A DNA stretch of 60,758 bases, counting the filler, from Dimargaris cristalligena (lineage: Eukaryota): assembly GCA_003614675.1 (NCBI GenBank). It is 12 parts of 12 records of this genome, joined end to end, with 100 filler letters (N's around TTAATTAATTAA, not from the genome) between each part and the next. Parts side by side here need not be neighbours in the genome. Positions count along the whole stretch, not along the records: positions 1 to 5,001 come from ML003695.1; 11 more parts are not named here. One strand, written 5' to 3'. Position 1 is the stretch's first letter; each line of letters opens with the position of its first letter. The notes under the pieces were generated by a model, which worked only from the letters and a program-made list of their open reading frames with translations, made no database searches and was not told the origin of the DNA. This document shows positions 1 to 47,970 of the stretch, in pieces. A program made the position numbers and the translations under genes.

Positions 1-141
1 GAAAGAATGGGTTAAAAGGGAAGGGAAAAAAACTGGATATACCAGACAAAAAAGCCGCCTCATACCTTGTATATAAATATAATAATCAAATAGTAATAAT
101 TCATACCTGTGGCAATCAAGGGGACACTCCACCTTGCCACA
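1..141 (-). mobile_element. Terminus of LTR-like element family B, inserted into the gag of the contig-1 retrotransposon (truncated by contig start)
   Basis: Positions 1-141 match the reverse complement of about 18847-18980 (gaaagaatgggttaaa...cttgccaca). The similarity stops exactly at GCCACA (141). Confidence 0.75.
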
Positions 142-1058
142 CCACCAGTACCACCCAACATGCTGAATCGACCACCCAGTACACTGAGATTACTGCCCAA
201 CAGGCACAAGCTACTGTAGGACAGGCACCCCATCCACCTAATCCTTCAACCATTTTAGCTACCCCAAGCTCCCTAGTTTACAAGCTTAAGCCTCAGGATA
301 TTATCCCTTACTCTGGACATCAGCAGGAGAGTTTTCAGGCCTGGAAAACAATGGCCGAGATTGCAACTGATGGCCGCTGTACATCTGAGTTAGAGCAAGT
401 TCAACACTGTGCCCTGTTTCTTCGAGGAAATACCATGAAGTGGTATGCCCAGACCATTCAGACCCATCAGCACTTTCAGTCATGGGATTCCTTTTGTTCT
501 GCTTTATCGAAGGCTTTTCATGACCCTGACACTACTGCATGTCTCCATCAATAGCTTAACAATATGTCTTTCAATCGTAACATTATTCAGTTCACCGACA
601 GGTTCATAGAGATTACTACTCAAATTAACGACTTGGCTCCTGCAGAAGGCATCTTTTGTTATCTGAGTAAACTACTGACCACTGTGGCTACTATTGTTTG
701 ATGTGAAGGTCCCGAGACCCTTCAGGAGGCTGCCCATAGTGCTCAGAGTGTGTATGCCAGTATGCACCCTAATACTTCTACCGTTCATCCGTATACTGCA
801 CCAATGGACCCCCAAAATAGTCTGACACCCATGGAGTTAGATTCCTTCACACCTCTGACACCCTAAGAGTGCAATCACCTGAGACGAGAGAAAGGATGTT
901 TTTATTGTCACAAGACTGGCCATATGTGTTCCAACTATCCCCAGTTGATAGGTCAAGCAAATCGTCAAGCTAGACCTAACCCTCCACTGAATAGACCATC
1001 GGAAAATGCCAGTACCTTGGAAGTCATCTCAGGCTCCTCTGATGTAACTCCTCTCTAA
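142..1058 (+). pseudogene. gag (retrotransposon capsid-like region plus CCHC zinc knuckle), decayed
   Basis: Same frame as the ORF at 351, reading ALFLRGNTMKWY...SWDSFCSALSKAF. PMELD motif at about 828. Knuckle CFYCHKTGHMCSNY at 897-938, with the last Cys changed tgt>tat. The frame ends at TAA 1056-1058. Confidence 0.8.
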
Positions 1059-1147
1059 TTTCTTCCATAACTATTCCCAATATTAGCAGCTCTTCAATTC
1101 CTACATTGCACCCTCTACATCTACAATATACTAAAAATGATCCTTTG

Positions 1148-1525
1148 CTTCCTGACTTGAGATGTACTTATAAACGAGCTACTGGTTTTGATATTCCTTG
1201 TGTAAGAAACTAAGACTTATTGCCTGGGACAACTTCTGTTATATCCTCAGGGATTTGTATTGAACCTCCTGATGGACATTTTATTCAGCTCCATTTATGA
1301 TCCAGCTCTGCTAAACAAGGTCTCATATTACAGGCTGGAATTATTGATTCTGACTACTGGGGTATTATTCAATTTATTATTTATAATTCCAGTCCTAGTG
1401 TATTTTCCATTTGTAAAGGGGATTATATTGTACAAGGTATTCTTAATTAGTATTATCTTGTTTCCCCCATTATTTCTAACACACTGTCTACAACTTTACG
1501 CCAAAATCAAGGGTTCAGCTCTAGT
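1148..1525 (+). pseudogene. dUTPase domain (trimeric dUTPase family) at the start of retrotransposon pol
   Basis: The pol frame reads LPDLRCTYKRATGFDIPC...ISSGICIEPPDGHFIQLHL*SSSAKQGLILQAGIIDSDYWGIIQFIIYN...KGDYIVQGIL...LRQNQGFSSS. All five dUTPase motifs are present in order (AGxDL, RSS, AGxIDxDYRG, GDRIAQ, RxxxGFGSS). Stops at 1211, 1298 and 1448. Confidence 0.9.
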
Positions 1526-1561
1526 ACCATGGCTCTACATGCCAGTTATTCTTGTCCCCTT

Positions 1562-4500
1562 CTACTTTTAACTGGCAGTATTAATACTACAGTAGTAACA
1601 GCCTTATTCAATCCTAGTGCCACTAACAATTTCATTTCTCATTAAATAGCACATCAAGCCCAATTATTACTAACTCCTTTAAGTCAGCCTCAAGAAGTAT
1701 GCTTAGGAGATTCTACCACTTTATTAATTACCCATACTACTACTTTTCATCTTACATTAGGAACATTTTATCAATCTTTCACAGCTTGTGTGTTAAACAA
1801 AGCTCCATATGGTATTCTTTTAGGCCAACCATAGATTCTGGAAAATACCCCCCAGCCACAATGGCATAAGTATTCTTTATTTCTTCCTAAGTCCAATACC
1901 TATTTAGAAGGATATCCTAGTTTTACTTTAAGATCCCCACCTAATAATACTACTTTATCTGTTGTTGAGGCCTCTGATATTTTAAATGACTTAAAAACTC
2001 ATGAAGGTTTCCTTATATTAGTACAACCAGTAATAGAGGAAGCCCCTTCAATTCCTAGTGTGTATCAATCCACTCTTGCCCCATTTTGATCCACTATTTT
2101 AGGCCCATTACCTAGTGGACTTCCTCCAGCTAGAACCATTGACCATCACGTAGATACTGGAGATGCAACCCCCATTTATCGCCATCCCTACAAATTTCCT
2201 CATTCTGACCTCCAGGAACTACATACCCAGTTGGATGACTACTTAGCTAAAGGATTGATTCAACCAGGAGCTTCTCCTTGGGGTGCTCCCATCATCTTTG
2301 TCCCTAAAAAAGATGGATTATGCCGAATGTGCATTGATTATCAGGCTCTAAATTCAAAAACGGTAAAAAATCGATATCCTCTACTCCATATTGATGAAAC
2401 CTTTACTGGTTTGGCTGGTGCTCACATATTATCTAAAATTGATTTAAAATCAGGATATCATCAAATTTGTATTCATCTACCTGATATACCTAAAACTGCT
2501 TTTAATACTAGGTATGGCCAATTTGAATTCCTTGTATTACCCTTTGGATTAACCAATGCCCCCGCTACTTTTCAAACACTTATGAATGGAGTACTTCACC
2601 CCTTTCTTGATAAGTTTGCTATGGTTTACCTTGATGATATTCTTATTTACAGTCCAGATGAAAGTACACATCAGCAATATTTACGGCAAGTTTTAACCCT
2701 TCTGGAATAGCATCATCTCTATGCTAATCTTGCTAAATGTGTCTTTGGCCAAACTTCTTTAGAATACTTAGGCCATATCATTTCTACTGCTGGTATATCT
2801 GTAGATCCCCGTAAAGTTCAGGCTATGCAAACTTTTCCTGTTCCCGCCACTGTTAAAACTTTACAATCTTTTTTAGGACTCACCAATTATTATTGTAAAT
2901 TCATTGCTAATTATTCTTTTATTGTAGCACCACTTACCAGTGCACTTCATAACAAACTAAAAGAACTCCTTTGGATACCTTAGTGTCAATCAGCTTTTGA
3001 ATCACTATGCCATCAATTAAGCAGTACCCCTCTATTAGTTTACCCTGATTATACCTTACCTTTTCAAGTATATACAGATGCCTCTAAGGTTGCTTTGGGT
3101 GCTGTTCTAATGCAGGATTAAGGCCAGGGATTACAACCTATTGCCTATGAATCTAAAAAATTATCTGATCCTGAATCTCATTATACTCCTCATGAGTTAG
3201 AATTATATGCTATTATTCATACTTTAAAAATTTAGTGTCACTACTTATATAACCATCCTTTTACTGTTCACACTGATCATAGAGGTCTTCAATTTCTTTC
3301 TACCACACCTAAGATTCCTATTTGCCTACATCATTGGCTTGAACTTCTCCTGGATTTCGATCCTGATATTAAGTATCTACCAGGGGCTAAGCAAGTTGTT
3401 GCAGATGCACTATCCCAATGTCACAAAACCCCAGCTCTTAATCAACATATATCTATAGCTGCTACCTTGGCTTAATTACCCACTGATTGGCCACAGTACA
3501 TGACACAGCTCTTATGGCAGGAACCATTACCACCAGATACCTCCGTTACCACTTGGGAACATTTGGATTGGGAAATATCCCACTTCACATTAGATCCTGT
3601 ATCAGGCTCCCTATGTTGACTCATCAATGGAAAACCAGTACCCTATATCAAACCCATTGCTCGTAACCATTGGATTCGATGGTTTCATGATAACTATGGA
3701 CATGAAGGGTACCAACGCACCCATTATCAATTACAAATACAAGTTTAGTGGCCACAGCTTCTTAGTTCAGTTCACCAATTTGTTTGTGCTTGTCCTCGTT
3801 GTCAAATTCATTGTCGAGCATATCCTCTTACCACTGTTGAGCCTACACCCCTGGACCCTGTAGCCCAACCTTTGGACCAATGGGCTCTTGATTTTGTAGG
3901 ACCACTTATTTCATCAGTGAAGGGTAATAGATATATTATTACAGCTATTGACCAAGCTAATGGATTCCCTGTTTGCAAAGCTGTTTCTGAAGCTACTGCA
4001 GAAGTTGCTAAATCTTTTCTAGGTGATGATATTATATCTATTTTTGGATTACCTTGAGAAATACTTACTGATCGAGGTACCCAGTTTATGAGTAATACTT
4101 TTGAATCCTTTTTGCAACACCATAATATCCACCATCTAACTACTTCCACTTATGATCCTCAGACTAATGGCTGAGTAGAATGATTTCATGCAGAACTCAA
4201 AGGAGCTATCACATATCAAAATACAGGAGCATGTCAAAATTGGGATACTTTTTTACCTATGGTACTATTAGTTATTCGGACTTGCTATTCTCAGGTAACA
4301 CAAAGTACACCATATTATTTGGTATTTGGTCATTACCCTTGGATACCTGGTGACCGAATCTTACTATTGTTACCGGAGTCAGATATTAACACACTGCAAC
4401 ATCATGCTCAACAATGTCTACCTAGTGTTCAAGAACATCATAAACAGGTATTCTCAATTCACCAGCTCACACAGGCTCATACTCGATAATGATTTTGGGA

Positions 4501-4795
4501 TAAACAACTACGATCTTGTCAATTCAAAGTCAATGATGCCATTTTATTATGAGATCCCACAGCTAGGTCCTTACAATCTCATTGGTTTGGACCTTTTCAT
4601 ATTCACCAGGTTCTACAACATAACACATATTTATTAATGTCCCCTAACATGACTATCAGTCCTGTTCCTATCTATGCCTCCCGATTAAAACCAGCTGTAG
4701 TATCAGATGCTAATTATCATGCTTGGCACTTACCTCCACAGTATATACGCACCCTTGGGGAGGATGGTGTTGTGGTAGGACCTGAGACTACTTAG
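1562..4795 (+). pseudogene. pol: aspartic protease, reverse transcriptase, RNase H, DDE integrase (decayed)
   Basis: Protease ALFNPSATNNFI at 1601 (from ALFDxGA). RT motifs [39 protein letters not shown] and [10 protein letters not shown]. RNase H VYTDASKVALGAVL. Integrase HDNYGH...CPRC, WALDFVGP, TDRGTQF, PQTNG*VE* and WFGPF. No chromodomain seen. Confidence 0.95.
4757..4767 (+). promoter_or_regulatory. Polypurine tract (plus-strand primer)
   Basis: GGGGAGGATGG lies immediately before the LTR start TGTTGTGG. Confidence 0.75.
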
Positions 4796-5001
4796 TCAAT
4801 CATAGTATTCCCTTTTTTAATTACATTCTATTTTTATATCCTTTTATCAGCAAAGTCATGATTTATTATTTTATAGCCTTGCAATATCATAGCAAGCGAG
4901 AGATACATCAAATACCACTCACATTTATATTTGATATCATCATTAGCTAGATATATTTGTAAACTCCTCATTATTAATCAATTTAAGCAGTAATACCACG
5001 T
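4768..5001 (+). repeat. 3' LTR (family A), truncated by contig end
   Basis: Starts TGTTGTGGTAGG. A second copy at 10201-10392 (minus strand) begins at the same base. Confidence 0.85.
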
Positions 5002-5101
5002 NNNNNNNNNNNNNNNNNNNNNNNNNNNNNNNNNNNNNNNNNNNNTTAATTAATTAANNNNNNNNNNNNNNNNNNNNNNNNNNNNNNNNNNNNNNNNNNN
5101 N
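5002..5101. other. Artificial contig spacer (44N-TTAATTAATTAA-44N); 11 identical spacers in the window
   Basis: The same spacer occurs at 10101, 15192, 20281, 25366, 30441, 35515, 40582, 45637, 50684 and 55722. It contains stops in all six frames. Confidence 0.99.
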
Positions 5102-10100: not shown

Positions 10101-10200
10101 NNNNNNNNNNNNNNNNNNNNNNNNNNNNNNNNNNNNNNNNNNNNTTAATTAATTAANNNNNNNNNNNNNNNNNNNNNNNNNNNNNNNNNNNNNNNNNNNN

Positions 10201-10392
10201 CGAATATATCTGGCTAATGATGATATCAAATATAAATGCGAGTGATATTTGATGTGTTTCTCACTTGCTATGATATTGCAAGGTTATAAAATAATAAATC
10301 GAGACTTCACTGATAAAAGGATATAGTAATGAGAATTGATTAATAAAGAAATACTGCGGTTTAACTAAGTAGTCTCAGGTCCTACCACAACA
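10201..10392 (-). repeat. LTR family A, 5' end (5' LTR or solo LTR), truncated by contig start
   Basis: The reverse complement matches 4768 to about 4960. There is no PPT upstream, so this is an insertion junction. Confidence 0.85.
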
Positions 10393-15291: not shown

Positions 15292-15414
15292 AGTATAAAT
15301 ACTCCCCCTTGCTACCACCTCTTGGAACAGCAAGTCTATCATCACCCTTCCCCTTTTATTATCTTTCTTTCAAATAAAGTTCAGTTTTCAAGGATTTGAG
15401 TTCAGTTCTTTACA
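15292..15414 (+). repeat. LTR family C, 3' portion
   Basis: Contains TATAAATA and AATAAA and ends ...TTCTTTACA. Further copies at 20138, 30386 and 55661. Confidence 0.8.
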
Positions 15415-18400
15415 TCAGGAAACAAGTAAAGGTGGTAGAGAGGCCCAAAGAGTTAGCAGCAGTTACTATTAATAAACTAGTATTCCATACTACACTTAAT
15501 ACCACTGATAATACACATACCCATTGGAGGATATTGGACAGAGCCACCTTAGGAAGAAAGCCAATCAAGGCCACCACAGACCAGGTAGCTGCCACCAGTA
15601 TTGTCACCCTCCAGGCTGCAAACCGCCTAGACCTCAGTGTTAATCCATCTCAAAAACCTCACTTCCAATCCTTTGGAGTGACCCACTAACTTTCTACAGT
15701 GGGTATGGCTAACAGCTTATTCATAATAAGCAAGTCAACCCGAAAACACTGGATACAATTTACTATTCTAGATGTTAAGGCTGATATTGATGCCTTAGTG
15801 GGTCAACATGACTTGGACAAGCTTGGGTTAGACCTCATCCAACTATTACCAATCCCCAGCAAAACCACTAGTAACCAGGACTTAGCTGTGTCACCAACTG
15901 GTGTTTCCCAGAAAGAAACCCAGTGGCTTCAGGGAATCCCAGCTGAAACCTTTGTCAAAATGGACCCAAAAACTAATAAGGAATTTCAAGATGCTGACAC
16001 CCAATACCCCATTCCTAGCTAAGCAAATGTAGAGGCACACCTACAGGTGCAATGGGAAGGAGAATCCTATTGGGCCCAAATTCTGGACAAGCTAATGTCA
16101 GGGAAACTAGCACTTTGGGAATATCCTCCAAGCTGCCCATCCCCTTGTTTACTCAAACCACTTGAGCCAACCATGTGAGAGGAAGCCCAGCTCCTATATG
16201 TCCCTCAGGCTCCACAAAGTAGAGCAGACCAGGAATTTATGGCAGGATACATCAAGACCCGACTCCAATATGGTGCTGATGAACCTGGGTAGGTGCATGC
16301 TAATCTACCAGTCTATTCATTACCTAAACCAAACACAGACGTTCACTGAGTTATTCTTGATGACATTCTGGGTAGTACTATTAATATGTATTCCCTTGGT
16401 ATGCATTTACCAAAGCTCCACAAGATTCAATCCTTTGTGTCTGATGCCTAAATAATCACTAGCATTGACTTAGCCTCATACTTTACACAAATCTGAATTA
16501 CCCCCCAGGTCCAGGATTATTGGACATTTAATAGTGGTATTCATGGTAAATTTTGGGCCACCAGACTTGTCCAAGGCAACAGTCAGAGCCCAGCCATTGC
16601 ACACACGTTCCTTGAGTACATACTTAATAGCATTATTGGGTTATGGGGCTGCCTCCTATGTTACATAGATAATATCTATTTAAAAAGTACAACAGGAGAT
16701 ATAAAAGAACACATTGAGGACATTGGCCAGTTAGTACAAACCCTAGCGGATTGGAGGCTCACTATCAATATGCCAAAGAGTAAATTTGCTGGTACCAAAG
16801 ATATTGACATCCTCAGCTACCACTGGTCAAAGGGAGGAAGCTGGACAATTACTGATCACCAAACCCAGGAACTCCAAGACTTACCAATGCTTCAAACAGT
16901 TAAAGACATCTAATGTCTCACTAGGGGTGTAAATGCCATCTCAGCACATCTACCCTGGTCTGCCGCCCTCTTAGCACCATTTTATGCCCTCACTGGAAAG
17001 GTCTGTTTAACCAAAGCTGACCACACTCAACTAGAGCCCCACTGGCTGGACCTCCAATGTGCCTTAACCAACCCAGCTAATCTGTATGAACCCAGTGGGG
17101 ATGAACCACTTACCCTATAAGTAGATGCAGCAGAAGCAGGAGTCAGGGCAGTCCTATTAGCACACAAGTTAGGAGAAGCTAAAGGCAGTAGAGTAGTAGC
17201 CTACTATAGCAAGGCCAAAGACACCCATGATTCCGGGAGGCCTGGGGATTAGTGAGAGCTGTCTGCCACTTTTACACTTACCTGGATGGCGCAGCCAACC
17301 TGCAGATCAAAGTGGATGCCACCACAGCCCTGGGATTATTCAACCACAAAGACCTCTGTCAGGTGGATGAACTGGGAGGCTTTAGAATGGAGCTAGCATC
17401 CATGGGAATCCATGCCCACATGGTACACCACTGCCCAGGTGACACCCATCTAACAGCAGACTGGTTATCAAGAGCAAGACAATGCCAGTGACCTAGGAAA
17501 ATAAAAGGGGAGCCAGGCCTGACAATTACAGCCCTCCAAACACCTCTCATCACCATCAACAATAGCACTAGTCTCAACCACAATCCAGATACTGATGACA
17601 ACATAAGTACTGGGGAATTCCTTAAATCAGATAATGAGGGAGACACTATTGACCTATCCTTCTCCTCCAATGAGGAAGACAAACTAGACCACCAACCTGA
17701 TAGCCAGCCTCCAGGGGAATCATTCCTAAGAGCAGCAATACCATTGGCATGGACCTAGTCCCTTACCCCAGAAGACTAACAAGTGGATGAACAGCTAAAC
17801 AAATGGATACAATTATGTCAGGGCTGAGATCTCAAAGTGGGGCATGATGATAGATTCTTTACTGAAGTCTGTGATATGAGTTTCAAGGATGGTCTATTGG
17901 GGTCAATTAAAAGATGAAGACTGGCAGGAGCAATGGGGATCTGGGCTCCCTTAGCCCCCACACTCAATATGAGAGAAGCCATTAAAACTTGGCACCATGA
18001 TCTCTGCCATCCAGGTCAAGAATGTCTCCTGGCCTATGCCTGAACAAAGCTATTACACTCACACCTATATAACACAATCAATGCTTATACCCGGGCCTGC
18101 CATACCTGCCAGATTAATGCAATCCCAACTACCCAAAATACACCTCAATCCACAACCTACAACCAGCAATAGCCCGGGAAACACCTCTACATAGACTTGG
18201 GATATGTAGGCTCTATTAGAGATGATGAGGAATCACAATTCTGAATTATTGCAGATGCCAATAGCCACTTCTACCAGGCTATACCAATCCTACAAGCAAC
18301 TGGGAAGGAAATTACAGAAGTAATTGATAATAACTGGGTTAGGATATTTAGTAAACCCACTCACCTCACAAGTGATAATGGACCACAATTTGTCTCCAAT

Positions 18401-19900
18401 GCATTCCAAGAGTACTTACAAGGACGGGGAATTATCCACATTCAGTCATCAAAGTATTGGCCCATAGCAAAACTGGCAGAATGGTACATAGGGCTATTGA
18501 AGCAATCTCTGAGAAAGTGCTTAATGGAAAACAGCACTCAAGGCAGCTGGATATAATACTTACAACAGATAACAATGGCACACATCCTACTGCCAGATCC
18601 ACACACTGGGCTGACACCTTGGGCCATAATACAAGGGGCTCAAGTTATCACTGAAGAGACCCACTGATGGCTGCATCCAGACAACAAGAACAACCCGGCA
18701 GGCATAGCAGAGTGGGTGATGGCCCAAGCAGAAGAATGTAGGGCCAGAGTCTAAAAGTGAGCCATGGAGAAAATAAATGAGCATATTACAAGGAGAAGGT
18801 ATGAAGAGGGCATCCTTGTAACTGTCAAAATCCTCCCTAAACCTGCTGTGGCAAGATGTACTGTCCCCCTATAAGCCACACTAATTATATTACTAATATT
18901 ATTATTATACAGGGTATGAAGTGGCTTTTTTTCTGGTATAACCAGTTTTTTTCCCCTCCCCTTTAACCCATTCTTTCCATACAACTTTTTCCTTCAATTT
19001 TATTTATATTTCTATTAGTGAATATATGCTATCCCTACAAATGGATATGTATATTCATGCTTGATTATTAGTGGTTATTTGATTTTATTCCTATCCTCTA
19101 CTATATTAGTTCTACTTTATGAATCCACCTTTTCTTTTTTATTAGTTATACAAGTTCACTGTATGCTTACTGGCTTTAAAAATTCTGTACCTTATACTAA
19201 GGATAGCTTGGTATTCTTGGCTATAGAGCCAAAAGTCTTGGCATTATTTAGATAAGATATGCACCATTGATGCACTCAATTGGGCTATACATGCAAATAA
19301 TTAGCACACTCATGCAAGTGATTGGGGATGTATTAGTGTACATATTATTCTATAAATAGGAAACTTTTTCCCCTCTTTTTTTTATGTATGTCATTTGCTT
19401 TATATCAATGTTTGGATACCAATTTTCTTCTATATTTTACTATACTATAAACCACCATTACTATTACTTTGGATTTCTTAGATTTTATATACTTTTAAAA
19501 GTTGTAGATGCCAAGGAAATGGTCCTCTTGAGCTTATAAACTAGTATGACATTTACTTAGTTTAAACTGGTCTTTTATTAAAAGTATTATATATTGAATT
19601 TTTATCTGAGTGATAAACCAGTTTACCTAGAGAAGCTACCCTGCCCTTTTGATATATTTTTGTTGTTCTATTTGTGGCTTAACACTACCACACTGTGACA
19701 GCACTGCCATCTAAAAGCCATCCCCCTGGCTCAGCGCACCTTGGGATCTACAGGGTACAACTAAGCCTGCATAATAGTATTTAATCTGTCACTATACCAA
19801 TGCACTATAGTAGCTACAGGTTGGGCACTCCAAATTAAGCCCCCCATGATAGTGCTCTGCTGTGGTCAGCTGGCCAGAGGCCGCGTAAGCCCCAGTACAC
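15415..19900 (+). mobile_element. Decayed, divergent LTR retrotransposon pol (PR-RT-RH-IN, Ty3/gypsy order), interrupted at 18847-19692; 3' boundary approximate
   Basis: Protease IKATTDQVAATSIV...DALVG. RT SIDLASYFTQI, RLVQGNSQSPA (16566) and CYIDNIYL (16662). RNase H VDAAEAGV...VAYYSK...ADWLSR. Integrase HHDLCH...CHTC, YIDL and SDNGPQF. Many stops and one frameshift near 17235. Confidence 0.9.
18847..19692 (+). mobile_element. 846-bp family B insertion (solo-LTR-like, TG...CA) nested in the integrase 3' region
   Basis: Ends are TGTGGCA...TACCACA. Flanks CTGC / CTGT fit a 4-bp TSD with one CpG transition. TATAAATA at about 19351. The host reading frame resumes after the insert. Confidence 0.75.
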
Positions 19901-20137
19901 ATTACCAATCCAAGAAGAAGCCATACTTTGAATGAATTCAAGGTCCCCAGATAATTGACAAGTTATTTTAATGGGAACAGTCCGGGGTTATCAATGTTAT
20001 TTTATTTTTTTATGCTAGCTGATTCTCTTTTCCTTCAGCTTTCCAAATTATACTTCTATATACTTTTCTGTCCATTATTGATGAAGTTATAGGTTGTCAA
20101 AGTCAATGATGATATTAAAGCTATGATAATTGACCAC

Positions 20138-20280
20138 TGTAAAGAACTAAACTCAAATCCTTGAAAACTGAACTTTATTAGAAAGAAAGATGATAAAAAG
20201 GGGAAGGGTGATGATAGACTTACTGTTCCAAGAGGTGGCAGCAAGGGGGAGTATTTATACTTGAAAGAGGAAGCCTAAAT
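20138..20280 (-). repeat. LTR family C, 3' portion
   Basis: Reverse complement of 15292-15414, extending slightly further. Confidence 0.8.
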
Positions 20281-35614: not shown

Positions 35615-38600
35615 CCGATGACCTCCGTGGGCAAGGCCGACCGCAAGACCCTTCAGGCACGGCCGTTGCCAGTGACTAATTATGGAGACGAAGCGATAAG
35701 CGGGTATCTCTCCGATACGTTCCAGGTAGCGCGCAATCTTTTGGCAAAAGTACTTGGTATCGATTCGGCCCGTGTAGCGCCATCGGCATCGTTCCTTCGT
35801 TTAGGGGGCGATTCCATATCGGCCATCCACTTTTCTTCAGTTTGTCGAGAACATGGTTGGCAACTGTCAATTAGCCAAATACTTCAATCGCGTTCCGTGA
35901 GCGATCTATTTCATCTACTTGAAGAACAGGTATTGAATAGCACGACTGATCCTATTTCGCCATACGAGCCATTTTCCTTGGCCAAATCAGTAGTCAGTAC
36001 GGCCGGTTTCTTAACATTACGCCACGAGGCTGCCTCACTGTTAAATATTACCTCAGAGAATATAGTAGACATCTACCCAGTGTCTAGCCTCCAACTCGGG
36101 TTCCTGATAAATACCTTGAAGGATCCGTCCGCCTACATGGTTCAACAATCGTTTGCCATCCATGGCCAACTCGATCTGAATCGTTTCCACCGGGTATGGA
36201 TGGAGGTCGCCCAGAACCACCCTATTCTGCGCACCAAGTTTATTCAAACCGACAGCATTGAGGGCATTCCATTCCTACAGGTCGTTACATCCGACAATGA
36301 TGTTGAGTGGTCGACTCATGTTGGTAGCTCACAAGAGGCGGACGAGGCCCAAGTGGCAAAGGGATATTTCGCACTGGACCGCCAGCGTGGTTTTGATTTG
36401 CATGGCCCTCTACTTCGTATACATACTCACTCTTTTAAGCCCGATTATCACATCTGTTTCCTGGCGTTCCACCATGCCCTACTCGATGCCTGGTCGGTGA
36501 ATGTCATTCTCAATGAGCTCGTCGGACAGTACCACGGCGTCCCTACTTCGCCCAGCACCCCATTTGCCGCCTATATCGAACATTTGCAGAAAATTGATCA
36601 AACAGACTGTCAGACATTCTGGGCATCTGCTCTCGAAAATACCAAACCCACGCCGGCTATTCGGTTCCCCGTCTACCATCCTGAATCCCCCCCTTACGAC
36701 TATGGAACTCGCCGATTTACCCTGTCCGTCGATTTACCGACTCTACACCAATTCTGCCATGACCAGCTTGTTACTCTCAACTCGCTGCTGCGCTGTCTGT
36801 GGGCAATCACCCTAGCCCACTACCTCAGTGAAACCCACGAGGTTACTTTCGGCGGACTGGCCTCCGGTCGAAATGTACCAGTAGCCGGTATTCAGGACAT
36901 GGTAGGCATGTGCATAAACACTCTGCCTATTCGTGTTAGTCTGGCCTTGAATCAAACAGTCGCCCAATTCATCCAAATGGTCAACAGACAGTCCATCGAT
37001 GTGACTACTTACGAACAATGTAGTCTCCTTGATATCTATAAATGGGGGAAGGTTGACCCCGAGGTTCGACTATTCGACTCCATCATGATGTACGAGAATT
37101 TTCCGTCAACAATGTCCCCCGTCACCACTCCGGAGATTTCCTTTAACCTTAGCGATGGCCAGAATTTCACCGAGTATGCCTATGCTCTCAGCTTCTTTGA
37201 CAGTGACACTAGTCTGGACGGAAGCCTGATGTACAGCCACACCCACTGTGATGGAAATTTTGCCGGCTTCCTAATTCAATTTGTTGACCATTGCCTGACA
37301 ACGATGGTGAAGGATCCCTCGGCAACTCTGCATGAACTCATGAGTCTACCTGCCAACGAGTCCCGGCTCATTCAAAAATGGGCCCAGGGCCATGTTCGTG
37401 AGTTCCCCCAACGGCAGTGGCTAGCCCATCGGCTGTTCACCCAACATATCTCGTCACGGTCCAATCATATCGCACTGGAGACCACGAGCCAACAGTTCAC
37501 CTACGCCGAAATGTATCATCACTCGTGCTGTTTTGCCCTGGCCCTCCAACAGGCCGGATTCCGACCCGGTAACCACGCTGCATTGCTCCTCCCCAGATCA
37601 GCTGAGTTTATATTCAGTTATTTCGGGGCTCTGCTGGCTGGTGGTGTGTGCGTCCCCTTGGATGTGGCCAATGCTACTGACCGGCTGCTTTACATCCTAC
37701 ACCAGCTGGATCACCCCTGGCTGGTCACTTCCACTGTTCACCAAATGGAGCCAGCCGCTGATTTAAGGGTTGCCGATTCCCGCACTTTGTTTGTCGATGA
37801 TATTCTGATTGACGAGGTAGACACCTCCGAATTCCAACCAGATAGCTCACGTAGCCCTTCCGACGACATGTACATTCTCTTTACATCGGGAACCACCGGT
37901 CGGCCGAAAGGTGTACCCATTTGCCACCAGTCTCTTGTCAACTATATCGTGGATTTCAACGACACCACTGGGTTACGCGAGTCTTGCCGAATGCTCCAGA
38001 CAATGAATATTTCGTTTGACGTGAGTCTCAATGAGATTTTCGCGGTTTTCCATGCTGGTGGTACGTTGGTCCTCCAGGATGGTGACCTTTTCGATACTCT
38101 CCAGCGGGTCAATACGTGCTGCATGGTACCCTCGATACTCAGCGCCTTGAATCCGGAAGACTTTCCCAACCTGGAACTAATGGCCACCATAGGTGAGGTA
38201 CTCCCCACCGGTGTGGCCCATCGCTGGTGTACCCATGTCAGGTTATTCAATATGTACGGTCCCACCGAGGCCACTGTCACCAGTCACATGGACTTAATTC
38301 GACTGGATGAATCCGTCACTATCGGCCGCCCTGTCGCCAATGTTCAGGGATATATCCTTGATGACCAACTCCGACCTGTCCCAGTCGGTGTCCCCGGCGA
38401 GCTCTGCATCGGGGGTATCGGGGTTAGCGCAGGCTACTGGAAACAACCTGAGCTGGCAGCCAAATCGTTTGTTCCTAACCCCTTTGGTCCGGGTACACTA
38501 TATCTTTCAGGGGACATGGTGAGTTGGCTTCCCAACGGCAAAATCCACTTCATTTCACGAAAGGACTTCCAGGTCAAACTACTTGGCTACCGAATTGAGC

Positions 38601-40438
38601 TTGGTGAGATTGAAAATACGGCCTCGCTGACCAAAAACCTTGAAAACGCAGCAGCCTGTGTTATTGGAGACCGCCTAGTACTCTTTGTCTCTCCGAATAC
38701 AGTTGACACCGCGGCACTTCGAAGGCTCCTGGCTGCCAAACTTCCGCACTACATGGTACCCAACACCATTGTACCGCTGGATTCTATCCCATTGACCGCC
38801 GTGGGTAAGGTTGACCGTAAAGCCCTGTACAAGTACGATTTAGGGACTAGTATTACCAACACAGGCAATGTCATAGAAGTCAGCCCTGCCGAAGCCCGTC
38901 TCGTATCCTTGATTGCCGAAACTCTCCGCATTGACCCCAGTACCATCTCGCCCACCGCCACTTTTTTCCGAGTTGGAGGTAACTCCCTTTCGGCCATTCA
39001 GCTGGTGTCTCGCTGCCGCCGCCACGACATTACGTTACGCTTGGTAGATATCAATCAGACCAATACCATTTCCCGCCTCGCTGAACTGGCCTCAACCTCA
39101 TCCGATTTCACCCAGCTGCTCGTCGAGGATATGGATACCGACTATTATAAATCAAGACCGGCAAGACTGACCCCATCACAGCTGGAATTAAGGTCGCTTC
39201 AGTTGGCTGACCTCCATTTCTTTCCTCTGCCCGCCATGTTTGAGTCTAGCACTCGATTTACCCCTGGCCAGTGGCAAACCGCCTGGTCCAATGTGCTTCA
39301 ACGGCATGATATGCTCCGGGCCCGCTTCCAGTTCATCGACGGGGAAATGACAACCACAATTGCCGAGATTGATGACCCATCGTCAACCTGTTTCGAGTAC
39401 CACAAACTGGCAAATGTCCAGGATGCATTGATCCAACTCTATGGCATCAACCAGCAACTCAATTTTGAGACAGGGCCGATATCACAGGTTCGGGTATTTG
39501 ACATCAGCAACATTCAGTATGTCTACATCTCGGTTCACCACCTGGTCTTTGACCTTGTGTCGGTGGAAATTGTTCGTGAGGACCTGTCAGCCTTCCTAAC
39601 TGGCCAAGCCCTTGAGCCCATGACCCACTCGTACGCAGCGTGGGCTGACCATCTTTATTCTCTGGCCCAGTCCGTCGACCTCCACAGTATCGATTTACCA
39701 TTCGCAAACATCACCCTACCAGTGGAACTTCCCGCGGACGGAACCCTGGTTACTAATGAAACGCGAGAGTTTTCCGGGGATTGTATTGATCTGGCTGCTA
39801 CCCGGCAACTCATTTCCGCCGTAACCGACCAACTAGAAGCCGTTCCCGTTGAGCACATCTTGACCGCGTTGGTCTGCGCCTGCCAGCGTTACTTTGGACT
39901 GTCCCAAATGAATATGGCATATTCGAGCCATAATCGAAAGGATCCCCACGGCGAGCTCGACGTCTCTCGAACCGTCGGGTTCTTTGCCTACCAGTTCCCG
40001 CTGGTATTAAAAAGCTCCATGGATGGGGATTTGGTGACCACCCTCCACAACGTCCAAGATGCACTAAGTACGGGTGTTGACAATGGTTTTCTACAAGCTG
40101 CCATCAAACACCTGTATCGCTTTTCCGATGACCAAATTGAGCTACAGCAGCGGTTCAATGTCCAATCTCAATTCAGCTTCACGTATGTGGACAGTATGGT
40201 GTTCCACGATTCCTCGGATTCCCCTACTTTATTGATAGATCAACCGTCGATGCTTGATGGATTACTTACCATGAAGAGCCAAAATATTTTCCCTCATTTG
40301 TTTGACTTCACGGTTTGGAATACTTCACAGGGCCTGAAATTCACCACGCATTACAACTCTAAGCAGTTCCAGACGGAGACAGTCGCCGGTCTTCTGGTAT
40401 GCTGGAAGGGATGTCTTCTTGAGTTGACCCGTATTTAA
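35615..40438 (+). CDS. Non-ribosomal peptide synthetase, 3' part: (A end)-T-C-A-T-terminal E/C-like domain; 5' truncated, intronless
   Basis: A10 motif VGKADRKTL. T domain LGGDSI. C domain FHHALLDAWS. A domain YILFTSGTTGRPKG, MYGPTE, GELCIGG, YLSGD and GKVDRKAL. Second T domain VGGNSL. Terminal domain VHHLVFDLVS and SRTVGFF. Confidence 0.95.
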   Translation, partial: PMTSVGKADRKTLQARPLPVTNYGDEAISGYLSDTFQVARNLLAKVLGIDSARVAPSASFLRLGGDSISAIHFSSVCREHGWQLSISQILQSRSVSDLFHLLEEQVLNSTTDPISPYEPFSLAKSVVSTAGFLTLRHEAASLLNITSENIVDIYPVSSLQLGFLINTLKDPSAYMVQQSFAIHGQLDLNRFHRVWMEVAQNHPILRTKFIQTDSIEGIPFLQVVTSDNDVEWSTHVGSSQEADEAQVAKGYFALDRQRGFDLHGPLLRIHTHSFKPDYHICFLAFHHALLDAWSVNVILNELVGQYHGVPTSPSTPFAAYIEHLQKIDQTDCQTFWASALENTKPTPAIRFPVYHPESPPYDYGTRRFTLSVDLPTLHQFCHDQLVTLNSLLRCLWAITLAHYLSETHEVTFGGLASGRNVPVAGIQDMVGMCINTLPIRVSLALNQTVAQFIQMVNRQSIDVTTYEQCSLLDIYKWGKVDPEVRLFDSIMMYENFPSTMSPVTTPEISFNLSDGQNFTEYAYALSFFDSDTSLDGSLMYSHTHCDGNFAGFLIQFVDHCLTTMVKDPSATLHELMSLPANESRLIQKWAQGHVREFPQRQWLAHRLFTQHISSRSNHIALETTSQQFTYAEMYHHSCCFALALQQAGFRPGNHAALLLPRSAEFIFSYFGALLAGGVCVPLDVANATDRLLYILHQLDHPWLVTSTVHQMEPAADLRVADSRTLFVDDILIDEVDTSEFQPDSSRSPSDDMYILFTSGTTGRPKGVPICHQSLVNYIVDFNDTTGLRESCRMLQTMNISFDVSLNEIFAVFHAGGTLVLQDGDLFDTLQRVNTCCMVPSILSALNPEDFPNLELMATIGEVLPTGVAHRWCTHVRLFNMYGPTEATVTSHMDLIRLDESVTIGRPVANVQGYILDDQLRPVPVGVPGELCIGGIGVSAGYWKQPELAAKSFVPNPFGPGTLYLSGDMVSWLPNGKIHFISRKDFQVKLLGYRIELGEIENTASLTKNLENAAACVIGDRLVLFVSPNTVDTAALRRLLAAKLPHYMVPNTIVPLDSIPLTAVGKVDRKALYKYDLGTSITNTGNVIEVSPAEARLVSLIAETLRIDPSTISPTATFFRVGGNSLSAIQLVSRCRRHDITLRLVDINQTNTISRLAELASTSSDFTQLLVEDMDTDYYKSRPARLTPSQLELRSLQLADLHFFPLPAMFESSTRFTPGQWQTAWSNVLQRHDMLRARFQFIDGEMTTTIAEIDDPSSTCFEYHKLANVQDALIQLYGINQQLNFETGPISQVRVFDISNIQYVYISVHHLVFDLVSVEIVREDLSAFLTGQALEPMTHSYAAWADHLYSLAQSVDLHSIDLPFANITLPVELPADGTLVTNETREFSGDCIDLAATRQLISAVTDQLEAVPVEHILTALVCACQRYFGLSQMNMAYSSHNRKDPHGELDVSRTVGFFAYQFPLVLKSSMDGDLVTTLHNVQDALSTGVDNGFLQAAIKHLYRFSDDQIELQQRFNVQSQFSFTYVDSMVFHDSSDSPTLLIDQPSMLDGLLTMKSQNIFPHLFDFTVWNTSQGLKFTTHYNSKQFQTETVAGLLVCWKGCLLELTRI

Positions 40439-45736: not shown

Positions 45737-45998
45737 TTGGGACCAGTTAGTACCTCAGCTTATTCTTACCCCCATAGTTTACCTCAATAAACTCTGTATA
45801 CACTCACCCCCTAGTACTGACCAGTAAGTGTGCATCGGTGCACGTCCCCTGCATATGTAGTACGCTTGCTTTATTCGGTTAGTCTTATCACCGCCCCTAA
45901 CACTAGCAGCCCGCTTGGCCGTGTCCAATGCCCCACCTACTGTTAGAAGCCTACCCCCGAGACTCTTGACGGACTAAGAGTGGTTAACTTGGGCAACA
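45737..45998 (+). repeat. LTR family D, 3' portion
   Basis: Ends ...gactcttgacggactaagagtggttaacttgggcaACA. Confidence 0.85.
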
Positions 45999-46018
45999 CT
46001 TTAAAATAAGTTATTAAT

Positions 46019-46598
46019 TGTTGCCTGAGTTAACCACTCTTAGTCCATCAAGAGCCTCAGGGATAGGCTTCTAATGGTAGGTAGGGCTTAGACTCAGCCA
46101 AGCAGGTGACTAGCATCAGGTATGGAGCATAGTACTAACTAATAAAGGCTTAGGAATTGGGTATGCAAGGGATGTGCAGTGGGTACACTTATTTATTAGT
46201 ATGAAGGGGTGAGTATATATTAAGTTTATTGAGGTAAACTAGGGGGTAAGGATAAGCTAAGGAATTTAACCAGTCCCAATGGAGCCCAGTTATATATACA
46301 TGGGGGACAACCCAGAGGGAGGTCCCAAAGGAGAATACTATTAAGACTAAGGTATACTAAATAGGCTAACTGGACAGGCATGGGGGTCCAGAAGACTTGG
46401 GTGATAACTGGAAGAGTTGTTAGATCAGCACTGGAGTAAGTGGTGAAAACCTAAGTATCTAGAAGGGGGACAGTTATGTTGAATAGGGTGATCCCATAGT
46501 ACTGGGGGTGACTATGGGAAGTTATATATGGTGCTATATGGCCTAGTCAGGATGGGTAATCACTATATCTGGATTAGGTTAGATTAGAAGGGCCAACA
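46019..46598 (-). mobile_element. Solo LTR, family D (580 bp), with a 5-bp TSD
   Basis: TGTTG...CAACA, flanked by TTAAT at 46014-46018 and TTAAT at 46599-46603. Confidence 0.9.
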
Positions 46599-46619
46599 TT
46601 AATAAATTAAAATAAAATA

Positions 46620-47326
46620 AACTGTATATTCCTAAAGGGAGTTTAATTACCCCTACAGTCAAAATTTAAAAGATTAAAGGATGAATAGATAGTATAAAGG
46701 AATACTACCTATTCTATTTAACTAGCTGGACTGGCCTAAAGTTCTGAATAAAATTACTTGAATATTACTACTTATGGGTAAAATTGGTCACCCACTAGGC
46801 TGGCAAGGAGCTAGTGAATAAACAAATAGGGTAGGAAGCTGGGGAGGGACAGGTTTTAACTAAAAACCTTTAATAAACACACTCAACTAGTAAGTGTCCA
46901 AAGCCCCATATGTAGTAATATGTAAATAAAATTAAACATCAATCCTTTAGGCTACCTATTTAAGAGAACCAGTTTGAAGGGCCTGCTTCCTTACTTGGAT
47001 AGTCCTTCTATATTGATCAGAAAAAGGCCTATAATCCCTTTTGGTGTCTGTGCTGACAGCAAAAGATGATTGTAAATTAATGTGGTAACTATTAGTATAG
47101 ACTGAGGCCATTAATACATTATCTTTACCTTGAAATAAGTGGAATAACTTCACTTTTTTGAAGTTTACTATATTATAGGACTCTGGCTACTGGTCCCTAC
47201 TGTATTGTAGGAAACTAACTAAAAGCTGATCAACTTCAGCTTTCCCAGTATTGTAATTTCTAATTAAATGGTCTAGATAGTGAATTACATCAGAAATTGA
47301 TGCAACTCTGTGCTGCTTTTCAGCAG
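46620..47326 (-). pseudogene. Decayed coding-like remnant between two LTRs, identity unknown
   Basis: The ORFs at 47187 and 46956 lie in the same frame, separated by one stop. The region is CpG-depleted and shows no motif. Confidence 0.25.
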
Positions 47327-47914
47327 TGTTAGACATTCTAATCTGCCCTAACCCAGAATCCTTAGTGTCCATCTATATAAGGCCTTATAGCACTATATTA
47401 ACCTTTACATGGTCACCCCTGGTACTATAGGATTATTCTCTATCATATAACCTTTCCCCTTATGGACTCTGCCTCTTTGCACTAATCACTTGAGTGCTAA
47501 TCTAAAGACTCTTCTAGTTACCATCAGAGTCTTCCAGGCCCTAATGGCCATCTGGTTGGCCTATTTTACCATATATTAGTCTTAGTAGTATTCTTCCCCC
47601 TGGGGCCTCCCTCTGGAGTTGTCCCACATATATATAACTGGGGCCCATTGGGACTAGTTAAATTCCTTAGCTTATCCTTACCCCCCCCCTGGTTTACCCT
47701 TAATAAAACTTATATATGCTCACTCCTCCCATACTAACTAGTAAGTATGCCTGCTGCATGTCCCTTTCCTACTCTTGCACCACAGCCTTTATTAGTTAGT
47801 ACCATACCTATACCTAATACTAGTGACCTGCTTGGCTAAGCCCAAGCCCCATCTACTATTAGAAGCCTATCCTTGGGATTCTTGATGGACTATTAGTAGT
47901 TAACCTAGGCAACA
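47327..47914 (+). repeat. LTR family D, full-length copy
   Basis: TGTTAG...GGCAACA, colinear with the other family D copies. No TSD evident. Confidence 0.85.
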
Positions 47915-47970
47915 AACCTATTTAATATTTTTCAACATTAATGCTCTAGTCACTCTATCTTCAGTCTATA

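What the first reader, a model, noticed from the sequence alone, without database searches (positions are those of the whole stretch)
1148..1525. Hidden dUTPase between gag and protease in a fungal Ty3/gypsy retrotransposon (betaretrovirus-like order)
Seen: the pol frame upstream of the protease encodes all five trimeric-dUTPase motifs in order (ATGFDI, *SSSAK, AGIIDSDYWG, GDYIVQ, RQNQGFSSS). Most deviations are explained by C>T or G>A changes. The domain is in frame with PR-RT-RH-IN and is missed by the ORF track because of three stops. Known: betaretroviruses place dUTPase between gag NC and protease, non-primate lentiviruses place it between RNase H and integrase, and dUTPases are rare in LTR retrotransposons. 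Inference: this is a retrotransposon lineage that captured a dUTPase independently and converged on the gag-dUT-PR layout, probably to limit uracil incorporation during reverse transcription.
Basis: partly seen in the sequence, partly recalled or inferred. Interest (0 to 1): 0.85.

Follow-up and report, generated by a model that had tools for sequence, protein, structure and literature searches.

The report
Decayed fungal retrotransposon carrying a dUTPase
A dead copy of a Ty3/gypsy retrotransposon in the fungus Dimargaris cristalligena does encode a dUTPase just ahead of its protease, but this layout has been described in fungal retrotransposons since 2008-2010, so it is a new example of a known thing.

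Summary
In the frame starting at 1001, window 1166-1525 matches Pfam dUTPase PF00692 (57-62 bits against a cut-off of 22, E about 1e-15 to 1e-17). All five motifs are in order and three stops interrupt it. Protease, RT, RNase H and integrase follow in the same frame. gag lies upstream in the frame that puts pol at -1. A neighbouring piece of the window identifies the host as Dimargaris cristalligena, Zoopagomycota.

The copy is dead. It has 21 stops in pol and 3 in gag. Key dUTPase arginines and the protease aspartate are lost, and CpG is depleted.

Novikova et al. 2010 describe Postia placenta elements with dUTPase at the N-terminus of Pol, and Llorens 2009 already drew the betaretrovirus parallel. 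An intact public polyprotein, P0031, has the same gag-dUT-PR-RT-RH-IN order. Of 120 dUTPase-bearing long proteins, 10 have dUT before PR and 49 have PR before dUT.

Whether this lineage captured the domain independently stays unresolved. It is a new member of a known kind and of low interest.

The parts
1..144 (+). End of the 5' LTR plus the leader/primer-binding region. The exact LTR end was not determined, and the piece of the window is cut here.
   Evidence: blastn gives 79% identity over 144 nt to 18977-18844 on the other strand of piece 4. There is no similarity to 4700-5001, so the two LTR parts held in the piece do not overlap.
150..1058 (+). gag (capsid-nucleocapsid) in the frame of position 3. 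It has 3 internal stops, ends at TAA 1056-1058, and its start codon was not determined.
   Evidence: Pfam on the translation of 3-1058: Ty3_capsid 39 bits (cut-off 29.1) and Retrotrans_gag 31 bits (cut-off 24.1). Frames are shown.
897..938 (+). Degenerate CCHC zinc knuckle (C-x2-C-x4-H-x4-Y; the last Cys is read as Tyr, codon TAT).
   Evidence: Read directly. No Pfam zf-CCHC hit was reported.
1001..1058 (+). gag/pol overlap. pol is in the -1 frame relative to gag. The pol frame has TGA at 1040-1042. No canonical slippery heptamer is present.
   Evidence: Three-frame translation. A frameshift site is inference only, and an indel in this decayed copy is not excluded.
1166..1525 (+). Trimeric-type dUTPase domain with all five motifs. 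It is inactivated by stops at 1211, 1298 and 1448, and motif residues R100, R120, R142 and G173 are changed.
   Evidence: Pfam PF00692 at 57.4-61.9 bits. Column-by-column comparison with 254 dUTPase rows. PDB sequence hits, best 3c3i_A at E=5.5e-14. Model pLDDT 91 and TM-score up to 0.85 to solved dUTPases.
1571..1873 (+). Aspartyl protease. The active-site triplet reads N-P-S at 1610-1618 where P0031 has D-S-G.
   Evidence: Pfam gag-asp_proteas 16.2 bits, below its cut-off. BLASTP alignment to the P0031 protease. Own PR HMM matches residues 192-291.
2300..2782 (+). Reverse transcriptase; the YLDD motif is kept.
   Evidence: Pfam RVT_1 114.3 bits, residues 434-594. Sequence.
2972..3358 (+). 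RNase H.
   Evidence: Pfam RT_RNaseH_2 105.7 bits and RT_RNaseH 100.5 bits, residues 658-786.
3662..4159 (+). Integrase: H2C2 zinc domain and catalytic core. No chromodomain follows.
   Evidence: Pfam Integrase_H2C2 38.2 bits (residues 888-936) and rve 53.6 bits (residues 956-1053). No PF00385 hit was found.
4757..4767 (+). Polypurine tract candidate directly before the 3' LTR.
   Evidence: Sequence. It abuts the sharp start of the repeat found.
4768..5001 (+). Start of the 3' LTR (begins TG). The pol stop at 4793-4795 lies inside it. It is cut by the end of the piece.
   Evidence: 88% identity over 192 nt to 10392-10203 on the minus strand of piece 3. The similarity begins exactly at 4768.

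Best explanation
Window 1-5001 is one decayed, non-functional copy of a multi-copy Ty3/gypsy LTR retrotransposon family. The genome is most likely that of the zoopagomycete fungus Dimargaris cristalligena. The family's Pol polyprotein began with a trimeric-type dUTPase placed between the gag nucleocapsid and the protease, giving the order gag / dUT-PR-RT-RH-IN, with pol in the -1 frame relative to gag.

The following is inferred from what is established for retroviral dUTPases. When the element was active, the domain would have hydrolysed dUTP to dUMP and pyrophosphate near the reverse-transcription complex. That lowers uracil incorporation into the cDNA. It would have been delivered as part of Gag-Pol and either released by the protease or left fused.

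The present copy does none of this. It carries 21 stops in pol and 3 in gag, has lost dUTPase motif arginines and the protease aspartate, and has been worn down mainly by C>T/G>A transitions with strong CpG loss. The architecture is a further example of dUTPase-bearing fungal Ty3/gypsy elements already in the literature.
For: Shown here:
- The dUTPase HMM match, the five motifs and the fold.
- The order dUT-PR-RT-RH-IN in one frame.
- gag upstream in another frame.
- 21 stops.
- Motif damage: R100 to stop, R120W, R142Y, A144V, G173S.
- Protease D-S-G read as N-P-S.
- In 282 conserved pol columns, 73 differ. Of these, 29 are explained by C>T/G>A only, against 4 by T>C/A>G only.
- CpG observed/expected is 0.24 in this piece, against 0.76-0.94 in five of the six pieces with annotated host genes (2, 3, 7, 8, 9). 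The sixth, piece 6, reads 0.67.
- The dUTPase segment has the same composition as the rest of pol: GC 0.347 against 0.379, and CpG o/e 0.19 against 0.21. It has therefore decayed together with the element.
- LTR pieces of the family occur twice more in the window, at 88% and 79% identity, so the family is repeated.
- Host: a USP14 exon in piece 2 is 100% identical to the D. cristalligena protein.

Precedent:
- PosPlaTy3-3 has dUTPase at the N-terminus of Pol (passage).
- The intact polyprotein P0031 has gag-CCHC-dUT-PR-RT-RH-IN-chromo and is 33% identical to the window over 1215 columns, including the dUTPase.
- 10 of 120 dUTPase-bearing long proteins have dUT before PR.
Against: - Only one copy with the dUTPase could be examined. 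No eukaryotic genome collection was available, so it is not shown that other family members carry the domain.
- The host assignment is shown for piece 2 only. That piece 1 comes from the same assembly is inferred from the window's construction and from repeats shared with pieces 3 and 4.
- In the RT-RH-IN tree the other 32 rows of the window's starred clade have no dUTPase. The domain is therefore not a general feature of its nearest sampled relatives.
- Enzymatic function of the ancestral domain is inferred from motif conservation and was not measured.
- The -1 frame relation could be an indel in a decayed copy. No canonical slippery heptamer is present.
Confidence: 0.85

Rival explanations
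1. The lineage acquired its dUTPase independently of other dUTPase-bearing retroelements and of betaretroviruses, and converged on the gag-dUT-PR order.
For: - In the RT-RH-IN tree the window lies in a clade with SH-aLRT 100 whose other 32 rows lack dUTPase.
- In the dUTPase tree the window groups, at 90 and not starred, with three short stand-alone dUTPases (P0128, P0135, P0254). It does not fall in the 23-row cluster (support 82) that holds 23 of the 32 other retroelement dUTPase rows in that tree.
- The five dUT>PR rows need 5 changes on the RT tree.
- Novikova et al. 2010 also argue for independent acquisitions from different sources (passage).
Against: - P0031, with the identical gag-dUT-PR order, is the sister branch (support 91) of the window's clade. 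The window sits in the basal polytomy of that clade. One gain followed by loss is therefore about as parsimonious as two gains.
- The AU test does not reject window + P0031 dUTPases as one clade (p=0.418).
- No starred branch holds the window's dUTPase anywhere.
- The window row is a long, compositionally odd branch in both trees.
- The non-dUT rows were picked as the best matches to the window, which is an ascertainment bias (32 of 81 used).
Confidence: 0.4
2. The dUTPase is a one-off: a host gene fragment captured by this single copy, or an assembly artefact. On this view it is not a feature of the family.
For: No second dUTPase-bearing copy was seen. tblastn of the read-through against the window finds only itself. 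The nearest pol relatives lack the domain.
Against: - The domain is exactly in frame between gag and the protease, with no flanking discontinuity.
- Its GC content and CpG depletion equal those of the rest of pol.
- It carries the same C>T/G>A damage.
- It is no closer than 42-44% identical to any dUTPase among 1.84 billion representatives. It is therefore not a recent copy of a host gene.
- The same placement exists in intact elements elsewhere.
Confidence: 0.07
3. The domain was a dUTPase-fold protein used for something other than dUTP hydrolysis, for example a regulatory or structural role as reported for some phage and herpesvirus dUTPase-like proteins.
For: Several motif residues are non-canonical in this copy. 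A weak overlap with dCTP-deaminase-like profiles is seen in relatives such as P0031 (PF22769).
Against: - All five catalytic motifs are recognisable in order.
- The residues that deviate at the most conserved positions are the ones reachable by C>T/G>A decay.
- The catalytic Asp of motif III, Gln of motif IV, and Arg and Phe of motif V are kept.
- The intact relative P0031 scores 121 bits on PF00692 over the full profile.
Confidence: 0.05

Closest known systems
PosPlaTy3-3 of Postia placenta, and the dUTPase-containing Metaviridae of Phanerochaete chrysosporium (Novikova & Blinov 2008; Novikova, Smyshlyaev & Blinov 2010, PMC2864245; passages read)
   Same: Fungal Ty3/gypsy LTR retrotransposon with a dUTPase domain in Pol. 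In PosPlaTy3-3 the domain is at the amino-terminus of Pol, ahead of the protease, as here.
   Different: Those are chromodomain-bearing elements of Basidiomycota. The window's element has no chromodomain and sits in a zoopagomycete. Their sequences were not on hand, and Additional files 1 and 2 of that paper are .DOC files I did not open. Relatedness was therefore not tested.
P0031, an unnamed 1767-aa polyprotein from a 6280-nt ENA contig
   Same: The order is gag - CCHC - dUTPase - protease - RT - RNase H - integrase. It aligns with the window from the dUTPase to the integrase at 33% identity. It is the sister branch to the window's clade in the RT-RH-IN tree (support 91).
   Different: It is intact, has gag and pol in one frame, and carries SH3 and chromodomain at the C-terminus. 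Its organism is unknown.
Betaretroviruses (MMTV, MPMV, HERV-K type)
   Same: The dUTPase is in frame with and N-terminal to the protease, downstream of gag NC (GyDB 2007 passage). Atlas clusters with dUTPase+RVP named after the HERV-K endopeptidase are feature neighbours of the P0031 dUT-PR segment.
   Different: Betaretroviruses keep dUT-PR in a separate pro frame between gag and pol (recalled, not from a call). Here dUT-PR-RT-RH-IN is one frame. The protease matches gag-asp_proteas/RVP_2-type profiles rather than RVP PF00077. No env was seen. In the RT tree the element lies among fungal-type Ty3/gypsy elements.
Tmt1 of Tuber melanosporum, rotifer Juno/Vesta/TelKA, and planarian giant gypsy elements
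   Same: LTR retrotransposons that carry a PF00692 dUTPase within Pol (passages).
   Different: The rotifer and planarian elements, and the fungal case that cite (Riccioni 2008, Tmt1), have the dUTPase between protease and RT. The same is true of 49 of 120 public dUTPase-bearing polyproteins. Here it precedes the protease.
Cellular and viral trimeric dUTPases with solved structures (for example 3c3i chlorella virus, 3f4f yeast Dut1p, 1f7d FIV, 1duc EIAV)
   Same: Same family by sequence: 45 distinct PDB sequences at E<=1e-5, best 5.5e-14. Same fold: TM-score 0.76-0.85.
   Different: Here it is a polyprotein domain, not a free-standing enzyme. In this copy it is a pseudogene with three stops and lost motif arginines.

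Membership tests
Trimeric (all-beta) dUTPase, Pfam PF00692 | Profile match above the curated gathering score over most of the profile | tested here: met
   57.4 bits (read-through) and 61.9 bits (finding's stretch) against a cut-off of 22, profile positions 9-128 of 129.
Trimeric (all-beta) dUTPase, Pfam PF00692 | Five conserved motifs in the canonical order | tested here: met
   All five are recognisable. 27 of 48 columns with >=60% consensus among 254 dUTPase rows are kept.
Trimeric (all-beta) dUTPase, Pfam PF00692 | Intact reading frame and catalytic or substrate-binding residues | tested here: not met
   Three in-frame stops. Motif II Arg is a TGA stop, motif III Arg is Trp, motif IV Arg is Tyr and motif V Gly is Ser. 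Asp116, Gln145, Arg167 and Phe172 are kept. It is a pseudogene of the family, not a working member.
Trimeric (all-beta) dUTPase, Pfam PF00692 | Jelly-roll beta fold of solved dUTPases | tested here: met
   AlphaFold2 with 61-row alignment A2: pLDDT 91.0, pTM 0.79. Foldseek PDB best hits are all dUTPases, TM-score up to 0.85, E down to 5.6e-9. The model leans on the alignment of real dUTPases.
Trimeric (all-beta) dUTPase, Pfam PF00692 | Homotrimer formation and dUTP hydrolysis | not tested
   No complex prediction was run, since the copy is a pseudogene. Activity needs a bench assay on an intact relative.
Ty3/gypsy (Metaviridae) LTR retrotransposon | pol order PR-RT-RH-IN with RVT_1-type RT and an rve integrase | tested here: met
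   Pfam domains in that order in one frame. The best relatives are Ty3/gypsy polyproteins at 33-40% identity over about 84% of the query.
Ty3/gypsy (Metaviridae) LTR retrotransposon | gag with Ty3-type capsid and a zinc knuckle | tested here: met
   Ty3_capsid 39 bits and Retrotrans_gag 31 bits. The knuckle is present but its last Cys is replaced.
Ty3/gypsy (Metaviridae) LTR retrotransposon | Two long terminal repeats with TG..CA ends, a PBS and a PPT | tested here: inconclusive
   The 5-kb piece cuts both LTRs. A repeat beginning TG at 4768, right after a purine run, recurs at 10392-10203. The first 144 nt recur at 18977-18844. The LTR end and PBS were not defined.
Fungal dUTPase-bearing chromoviruses (PosPlaTy3-3 type) | dUTPase at the N-terminus of Pol, before the protease | tested here: met
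   dUT residues 56-175, PR residues 191-291. The published description was read.
Fungal dUTPase-bearing chromoviruses (PosPlaTy3-3 type) | Chromodomain at the integrase C-terminus | tested here: not met
   No PF00385 or SH3_Tf2-1 hit in the read-through at E<=1. Decay could hide one.
Fungal dUTPase-bearing chromoviruses (PosPlaTy3-3 type) | Phylogenetic grouping with the published elements | not tested
Betaretrovirus-like organisation | dUTPase N-terminal to and in frame with the protease | tested here: met
   The feature as stated in GyDB 2007 was read.
Betaretrovirus-like organisation | Separate pro frame, RVP (PF00077) protease, env | tested here: not met
   dUT-PR-RT-RH-IN are in a single frame. 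The protease hit is gag-asp_proteas. No further ORF lies between the integrase and the LTR. The two-frameshift layout of betaretroviruses is recalled, not from a call.

The most novel reading that the evidence does not exclude
This would be the first dUTPase-bearing LTR retrotransposon documented in Kickxellomycotina (Zoopagomycota). It belongs to a chromodomain-less Ty3/gypsy clade whose other sampled members lack the domain. On this reading it represents a further, independent capture of a dUTPase that landed at the same gag-PR junction as in betaretroviruses and in some basidiomycete chromoviruses. That would point to a preferred insertion point for accessory enzymes in Gag-Pol.
Probability: 0.35. 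Interest if true: 0.35.

Novelty: new member of a known kind. Interest (0 to 1): 0.18.

Why it matters
It matters little on its own. The finding adds an early-diverging fungal lineage to the list of hosts whose Ty3/gypsy elements carry a dUTPase. It also gives one more data point for a recurring pattern: dUTPase appears at several positions of Pol (before PR, between PR and RT, after RNase H, after IN). If the independence of this acquisition were shown, it would strengthen the case that reverse-transcribing elements repeatedly recruit dUTPase to keep uracil out of their cDNA.

For annotation, it shows that stop-riddled, CpG-depleted TE copies in this genome hide recognisable domains that ORF-based tracks miss.

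Tried and rejected
- Other copies inside the window. tblastn of the read-through finds only itself. Only LTR fragments recur. Piece 4 holds a different decayed LTR element with RT, RH and IN but no dUTPase hit. Piece 10 gave no Pfam hit in six frames.
- Close relatives of the dUTPase. There are none. Against 1.84 billion representatives there were 7736 hits at E<=1e-3, 199 at E<=1e-10 and 0 at E<=1e-30, with identity at most about 42%.
- Origin of the domain by phylogeny. A FastTree of 255 rows and an IQ-TREE of 61 rows give no starred branch that holds the window's domain, so there is no conclusion.
- Neurospora-type RIP as the decay mechanism. I rejected this. (CpA+TpG)/(ApC+GpT) is 1.29 and TpA/ApT is 0.94, while CpG o/e is 0.24 with an excess of TpG and CpA. 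The pattern is CpG-centred. 16 of 33 inferred C>T/G>A changes are in a CpG context.
- A programmed -1 frameshift signal. No canonical X XXY YYZ heptamer lies in the 995-1055 overlap. The string at 1001-1007 is in the right register only if two transitions are assumed. That is speculation and I did not pursue it.
- One literature query failed on a term format and was re-sent in corrected form.

Full report
**What the window is.** The 60,758-base window is not one locus. It is twelve pieces of about 5 kb joined by N44-ttaattaattaa-N44 spacers. The finding lies in piece 1 (1-5001).
- Piece 2 carries a USP14-type deubiquitinase exon that is 100% identical over 92% of the query to the Dimargaris cristalligena protein. 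The next best hits are other Dimargaritales at 55-61%.
- Other pieces hold ordinary fungal genes, including an NRPS module with Condensation, AMP-binding and PP-binding domains, PTH2 and DUF498.
- That piece 1 comes from the same genome is an inference. It rests on the window's construction and on repeats that piece 1 shares with pieces 3 and 4.

**Checking the observation.** Translating 1001-4795 in the stated frame gives 1265 codons with 21 stops, all TAA, TAG or TGA.
- With stops read as X, Pfam finds dUTPase PF00692 at 57.4 bits (E=1.7e-15, residues 56-175, which is nt 1166-1525, profile 9-128 of 129). The finding's own stretch scores 61.9 bits (E=6.5e-17). The gathering score is 22.
- Next in the same frame is a weak aspartyl protease at 16.2 bits, below its cut-off. 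It is confirmed by alignment to the P0031 protease and by my own HMM.
- RVT_1 (114 bits), RT_RNaseH_2/RT_RNaseH (106 and 100 bits), Integrase_H2C2 (38 bits) and rve (54 bits) follow.
- Sequence search of the PDB gives 45 distinct dUTPase sequences at E<=1e-5. The best is 3c3i_A at 5.5e-14, and the list includes EIAV 1duc and FIV 1f7d.
- An AlphaFold2 model (alignment A2, 61 rows) has pLDDT 91.0. It matches only dUTPases at the top of the PDB fold search, with TM-score up to 0.85.
The three stops inside the domain (at 1211, 1298 and 1448) explain why an ORF track misses it.

**Anatomy of the element.**
- gag lies upstream in the frame of position 3. It scores Ty3_capsid 39 bits and Retrotrans_gag 31 bits, has three internal stops and ends at TAA 1056-1058.
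- A CCHC knuckle sits at 897-938, with its last Cys read as Tyr.
- pol is in the -1 frame relative to gag. No canonical slippery heptamer is present, and the pol frame has a TGA at 1040-1042. I therefore cannot tell a programmed frameshift from an indel in this decayed copy.
- No chromodomain is detected.
- A repeat begins sharply with TG at 4768, directly after a purine run at 4757-4767. It recurs at 88% identity at 10392-10203. The first 144 nt recur at 79% at 18977-18844. These are LTR pieces, so the family is multi-copy. The 5-kb piece cuts both LTRs.

**State of the copy.** It is dead.
- Besides the stops, the protease active-site D-S-G reads N-P-S.
- In the dUTPase I compared 48 columns with at least 60% consensus among 254 other dUTPase rows. 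The window keeps 27 and differs at 21.
- Nine of those 21 can be reached by C>T/G>A alone. They include the damaging ones: motif II Arg to TGA stop, motif III Arg to Trp, motif IV Arg to Tyr and Ala to Val, and motif V Gly to Ser.
- The other 12 are mostly conservative changes. The catalytic Asp116, Gln145, Arg167 and Phe172 are kept.
- Across pol, 282 columns are conserved in at least 80% of at least 10 of 15 reference polyproteins, and 73 of them differ in the window.
- Of those 73, 29 are explained by C>T/G>A only, 4 by T>C/A>G only, 2 by mixed transitions, 37 need a transversion and 1 is ambiguous.
- Stops fall on conserved Trp (278, 745, 916) and Arg (100, 873, 1061, 1184) columns.
- So 'most deviations' is too strong, but the directional bias is real.
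- The signature is not Neurospora-type RIP. CpG o/e is 0.24, TpG 1.20 and CpA 1.17, and the RIP index (CpA+TpG)/(ApC+GpT) is 1.29.
- Five of the six pieces with annotated host genes (2, 3, 7, 8, 9) have CpG o/e 0.76-0.94, and the sixth (piece 6) has 0.67. Pieces 4 and 10 share the depletion at 0.08 and 0.19.
- Sixteen of 33 inferred C>T/G>A changes are in a CpG context. This fits deamination of methylated CpG in repeats, but that mechanism is an inference.
- The dUTPase segment has the same GC content and CpG depletion as the rest of pol. That argues against a late insertion.

**Relatives.**
- The read-through finds 4958 proteins at E<=1e-3 among 8000 scored candidates. The full-length relatives are only 33-40% identical. 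They include Calcarisporiella P0007 at 40% over 84% of the query, plus Absidia, Mucor and Rhizopus.
- Of the 120 hits listed, only P0031 carries PF00692.
- P0031 is an intact 1767-aa polyprotein from an unnamed ENA contig. Its order is gag - CCHC - dUTPase (494-621) - protease (626-743) - RT - RH - IN - SH3 - chromo. It aligns with the window from the dUTPase onward at 33% identity.
- The dUTPase alone has no close relative among 1.84 billion representatives: 7736 hits at E<=1e-3 and none at E<=1e-30.
- A profile of the two dUT-PR segments (A1) searched against longer proteins gave 168 hits at E<=1e-5.
Forty-nine have PR before dUT and 10 have dUT before PR. Seven have dUT after RNase H with RT also detected (RT-RH-dUT or RT-RH-dUT-IN), and one further row is RH-dUT only. 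Four have dUT after IN.
- Thirty-six of the 120 show dUT alone. Many of these are Ty1/copia types that my HMMs do not cover, judging by the PF07727 entries.
- dUTPase in LTR retroelements is thus common in public data and occurs at every junction. The query favoured dUT-PR rows, so these proportions are not unbiased.

**Was the domain captured independently?** I could not decide this.
- I built a quick IQ-TREE tree (LG+G4) of RT-to-IN segments with 53 rows: all 21 dUT-bearing rows that passed the RT+RH+IN filter, and the first 32 of 81 dUT-less rows.
- The window falls in a clade with SH-aLRT 100 whose other 32 rows lack dUTPase. It sits in the basal polytomy of that clade, and P0031 is the sister branch at support 91.
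- That topology fits two capture events. It fits equally well one capture before the split followed by loss.
- The dUTPase trees are unresolved. In the 61-row tree the window groups, at 90 and not starred, with three short dUTPases of unknown origin.
- An AU test does not reject a window + P0031 clade (p=0.418).
- The window row is a long branch with deviant composition in both trees.

**Literature.**
[quoted passage not shown] They cite earlier cases in Phanerochaete chrysosporium and Tuber melanosporum, and they already propose independent acquisitions.
- Llorens et al. [quoted passage not shown]
- GyDB 2007 (passage) states the N-terminal-to-PR position for betaretroviruses.
- Rodriguez et al. 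2017 (passages) describe PR-dUT-RT in rotifers. Arkhipova and Yushenova 2019 (passage) describe it in planarians.
- A preprint on Entomophthora muscae, another zoopagomycete, lists PF00692 among TE-related Pfam families enriched there (passage).
- Two full-text searches listed no paper that links Dimargaris with dUTPase. One search listed 25 of 234 papers.

**Mechanism.**
- Shown: the domain is a dUTPase by sequence and fold, and it sits between NC and PR in Pol.
- Inferred from established knowledge of retroviral dUTPases (Payne and Elder 2001 as cited; Hizi and Herzig 2015 as cited; neither paper was read): in an active element the enzyme would lower the local dUTP level during reverse transcription. 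That limits uracil in the cDNA, which matters most in non-dividing cells.
- Whether the domain was cleaved off or acted as an NC-dUT or dUT-PR fusion is unknown.
- In this copy the function is lost.

**Verdict.** The element is an ordinary, decayed member of a known kind of dUTPase-bearing fungal Ty3/gypsy retrotransposon, in a host lineage where it had not been specifically described. Independent capture remains possible but is not shown.

Noticed in passing
whole window; spacers at 5002-5101, 10101-10200, and so on, about every 5.1 kb: The window is a concatenation of twelve pieces of about 5 kb, joined by N44 + ttaattaattaa + N44. Features cannot be assumed to be neighbours across pieces.
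   Followed up: yes
window 15292-20280 (piece 4): This is a second, different decayed LTR retroelement. RVT_1 and RT_RNaseH_2 lie in one frame, and Integrase_H2C2 and rve in another. No dUTPase was found. CpG o/e is only 0.08. The two ends of the piece look like inverted copies of one another in the translations.
   Followed up: partly
window 10203-10392 (-) and 18844-18977 (-): These are fragments of the LTR and leader of the dUTPase-bearing family, at 88% and 79% identity. The first starts exactly at the LTR's TG and may be a solo LTR or the LTR of another copy cut by the end of the piece.
   Followed up: partly
window 45737-50683 (piece 10): The piece is AT-rich and CpG-depleted (o/e 0.19, TpA/ApT 1.22). 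It gave no Pfam hit in any of six frames, but short peptide-like strings recur on both strands. It is probably an unclassified repeat.
   Followed up: no
pieces 1, 4 and 10, compared with the other pieces: CpG depletion with TpG/CpA excess is strongest in the repeat-bearing pieces (o/e 0.08-0.24). Five of the six pieces with annotated host genes read 0.76-0.94, and the remaining pieces read 0.60-0.86. This suggests repeat-targeted CpG methylation and deamination in this zoopagomycete rather than classical RIP.
   Followed up: partly
window 35615-40438 (+), piece 8: A long intron-free NRPS reading frame with PP-binding, Condensation, AMP-binding, PP-binding and Condensation domains. It runs off the start of the piece.
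   Followed up: partly
P0124 (767 aa) and P0122, P0123, P0127, P0145 among the hits: Public proteins with two or three tandem dUTPase domains in one chain gave the highest scores to the window's domain. P0124 also has a weak retroviral protease hit after them.
   Followed up: no
hits (for example P0416, P0436, P0455, P0240): Many Ty1/copia-type polyproteins (RVT_2 PF07727) also carry a dUTPase, placed after the integrase SH3-like domain and before RT. One is named from the diatom Chaetoceros tenuissimus.
   Followed up: no
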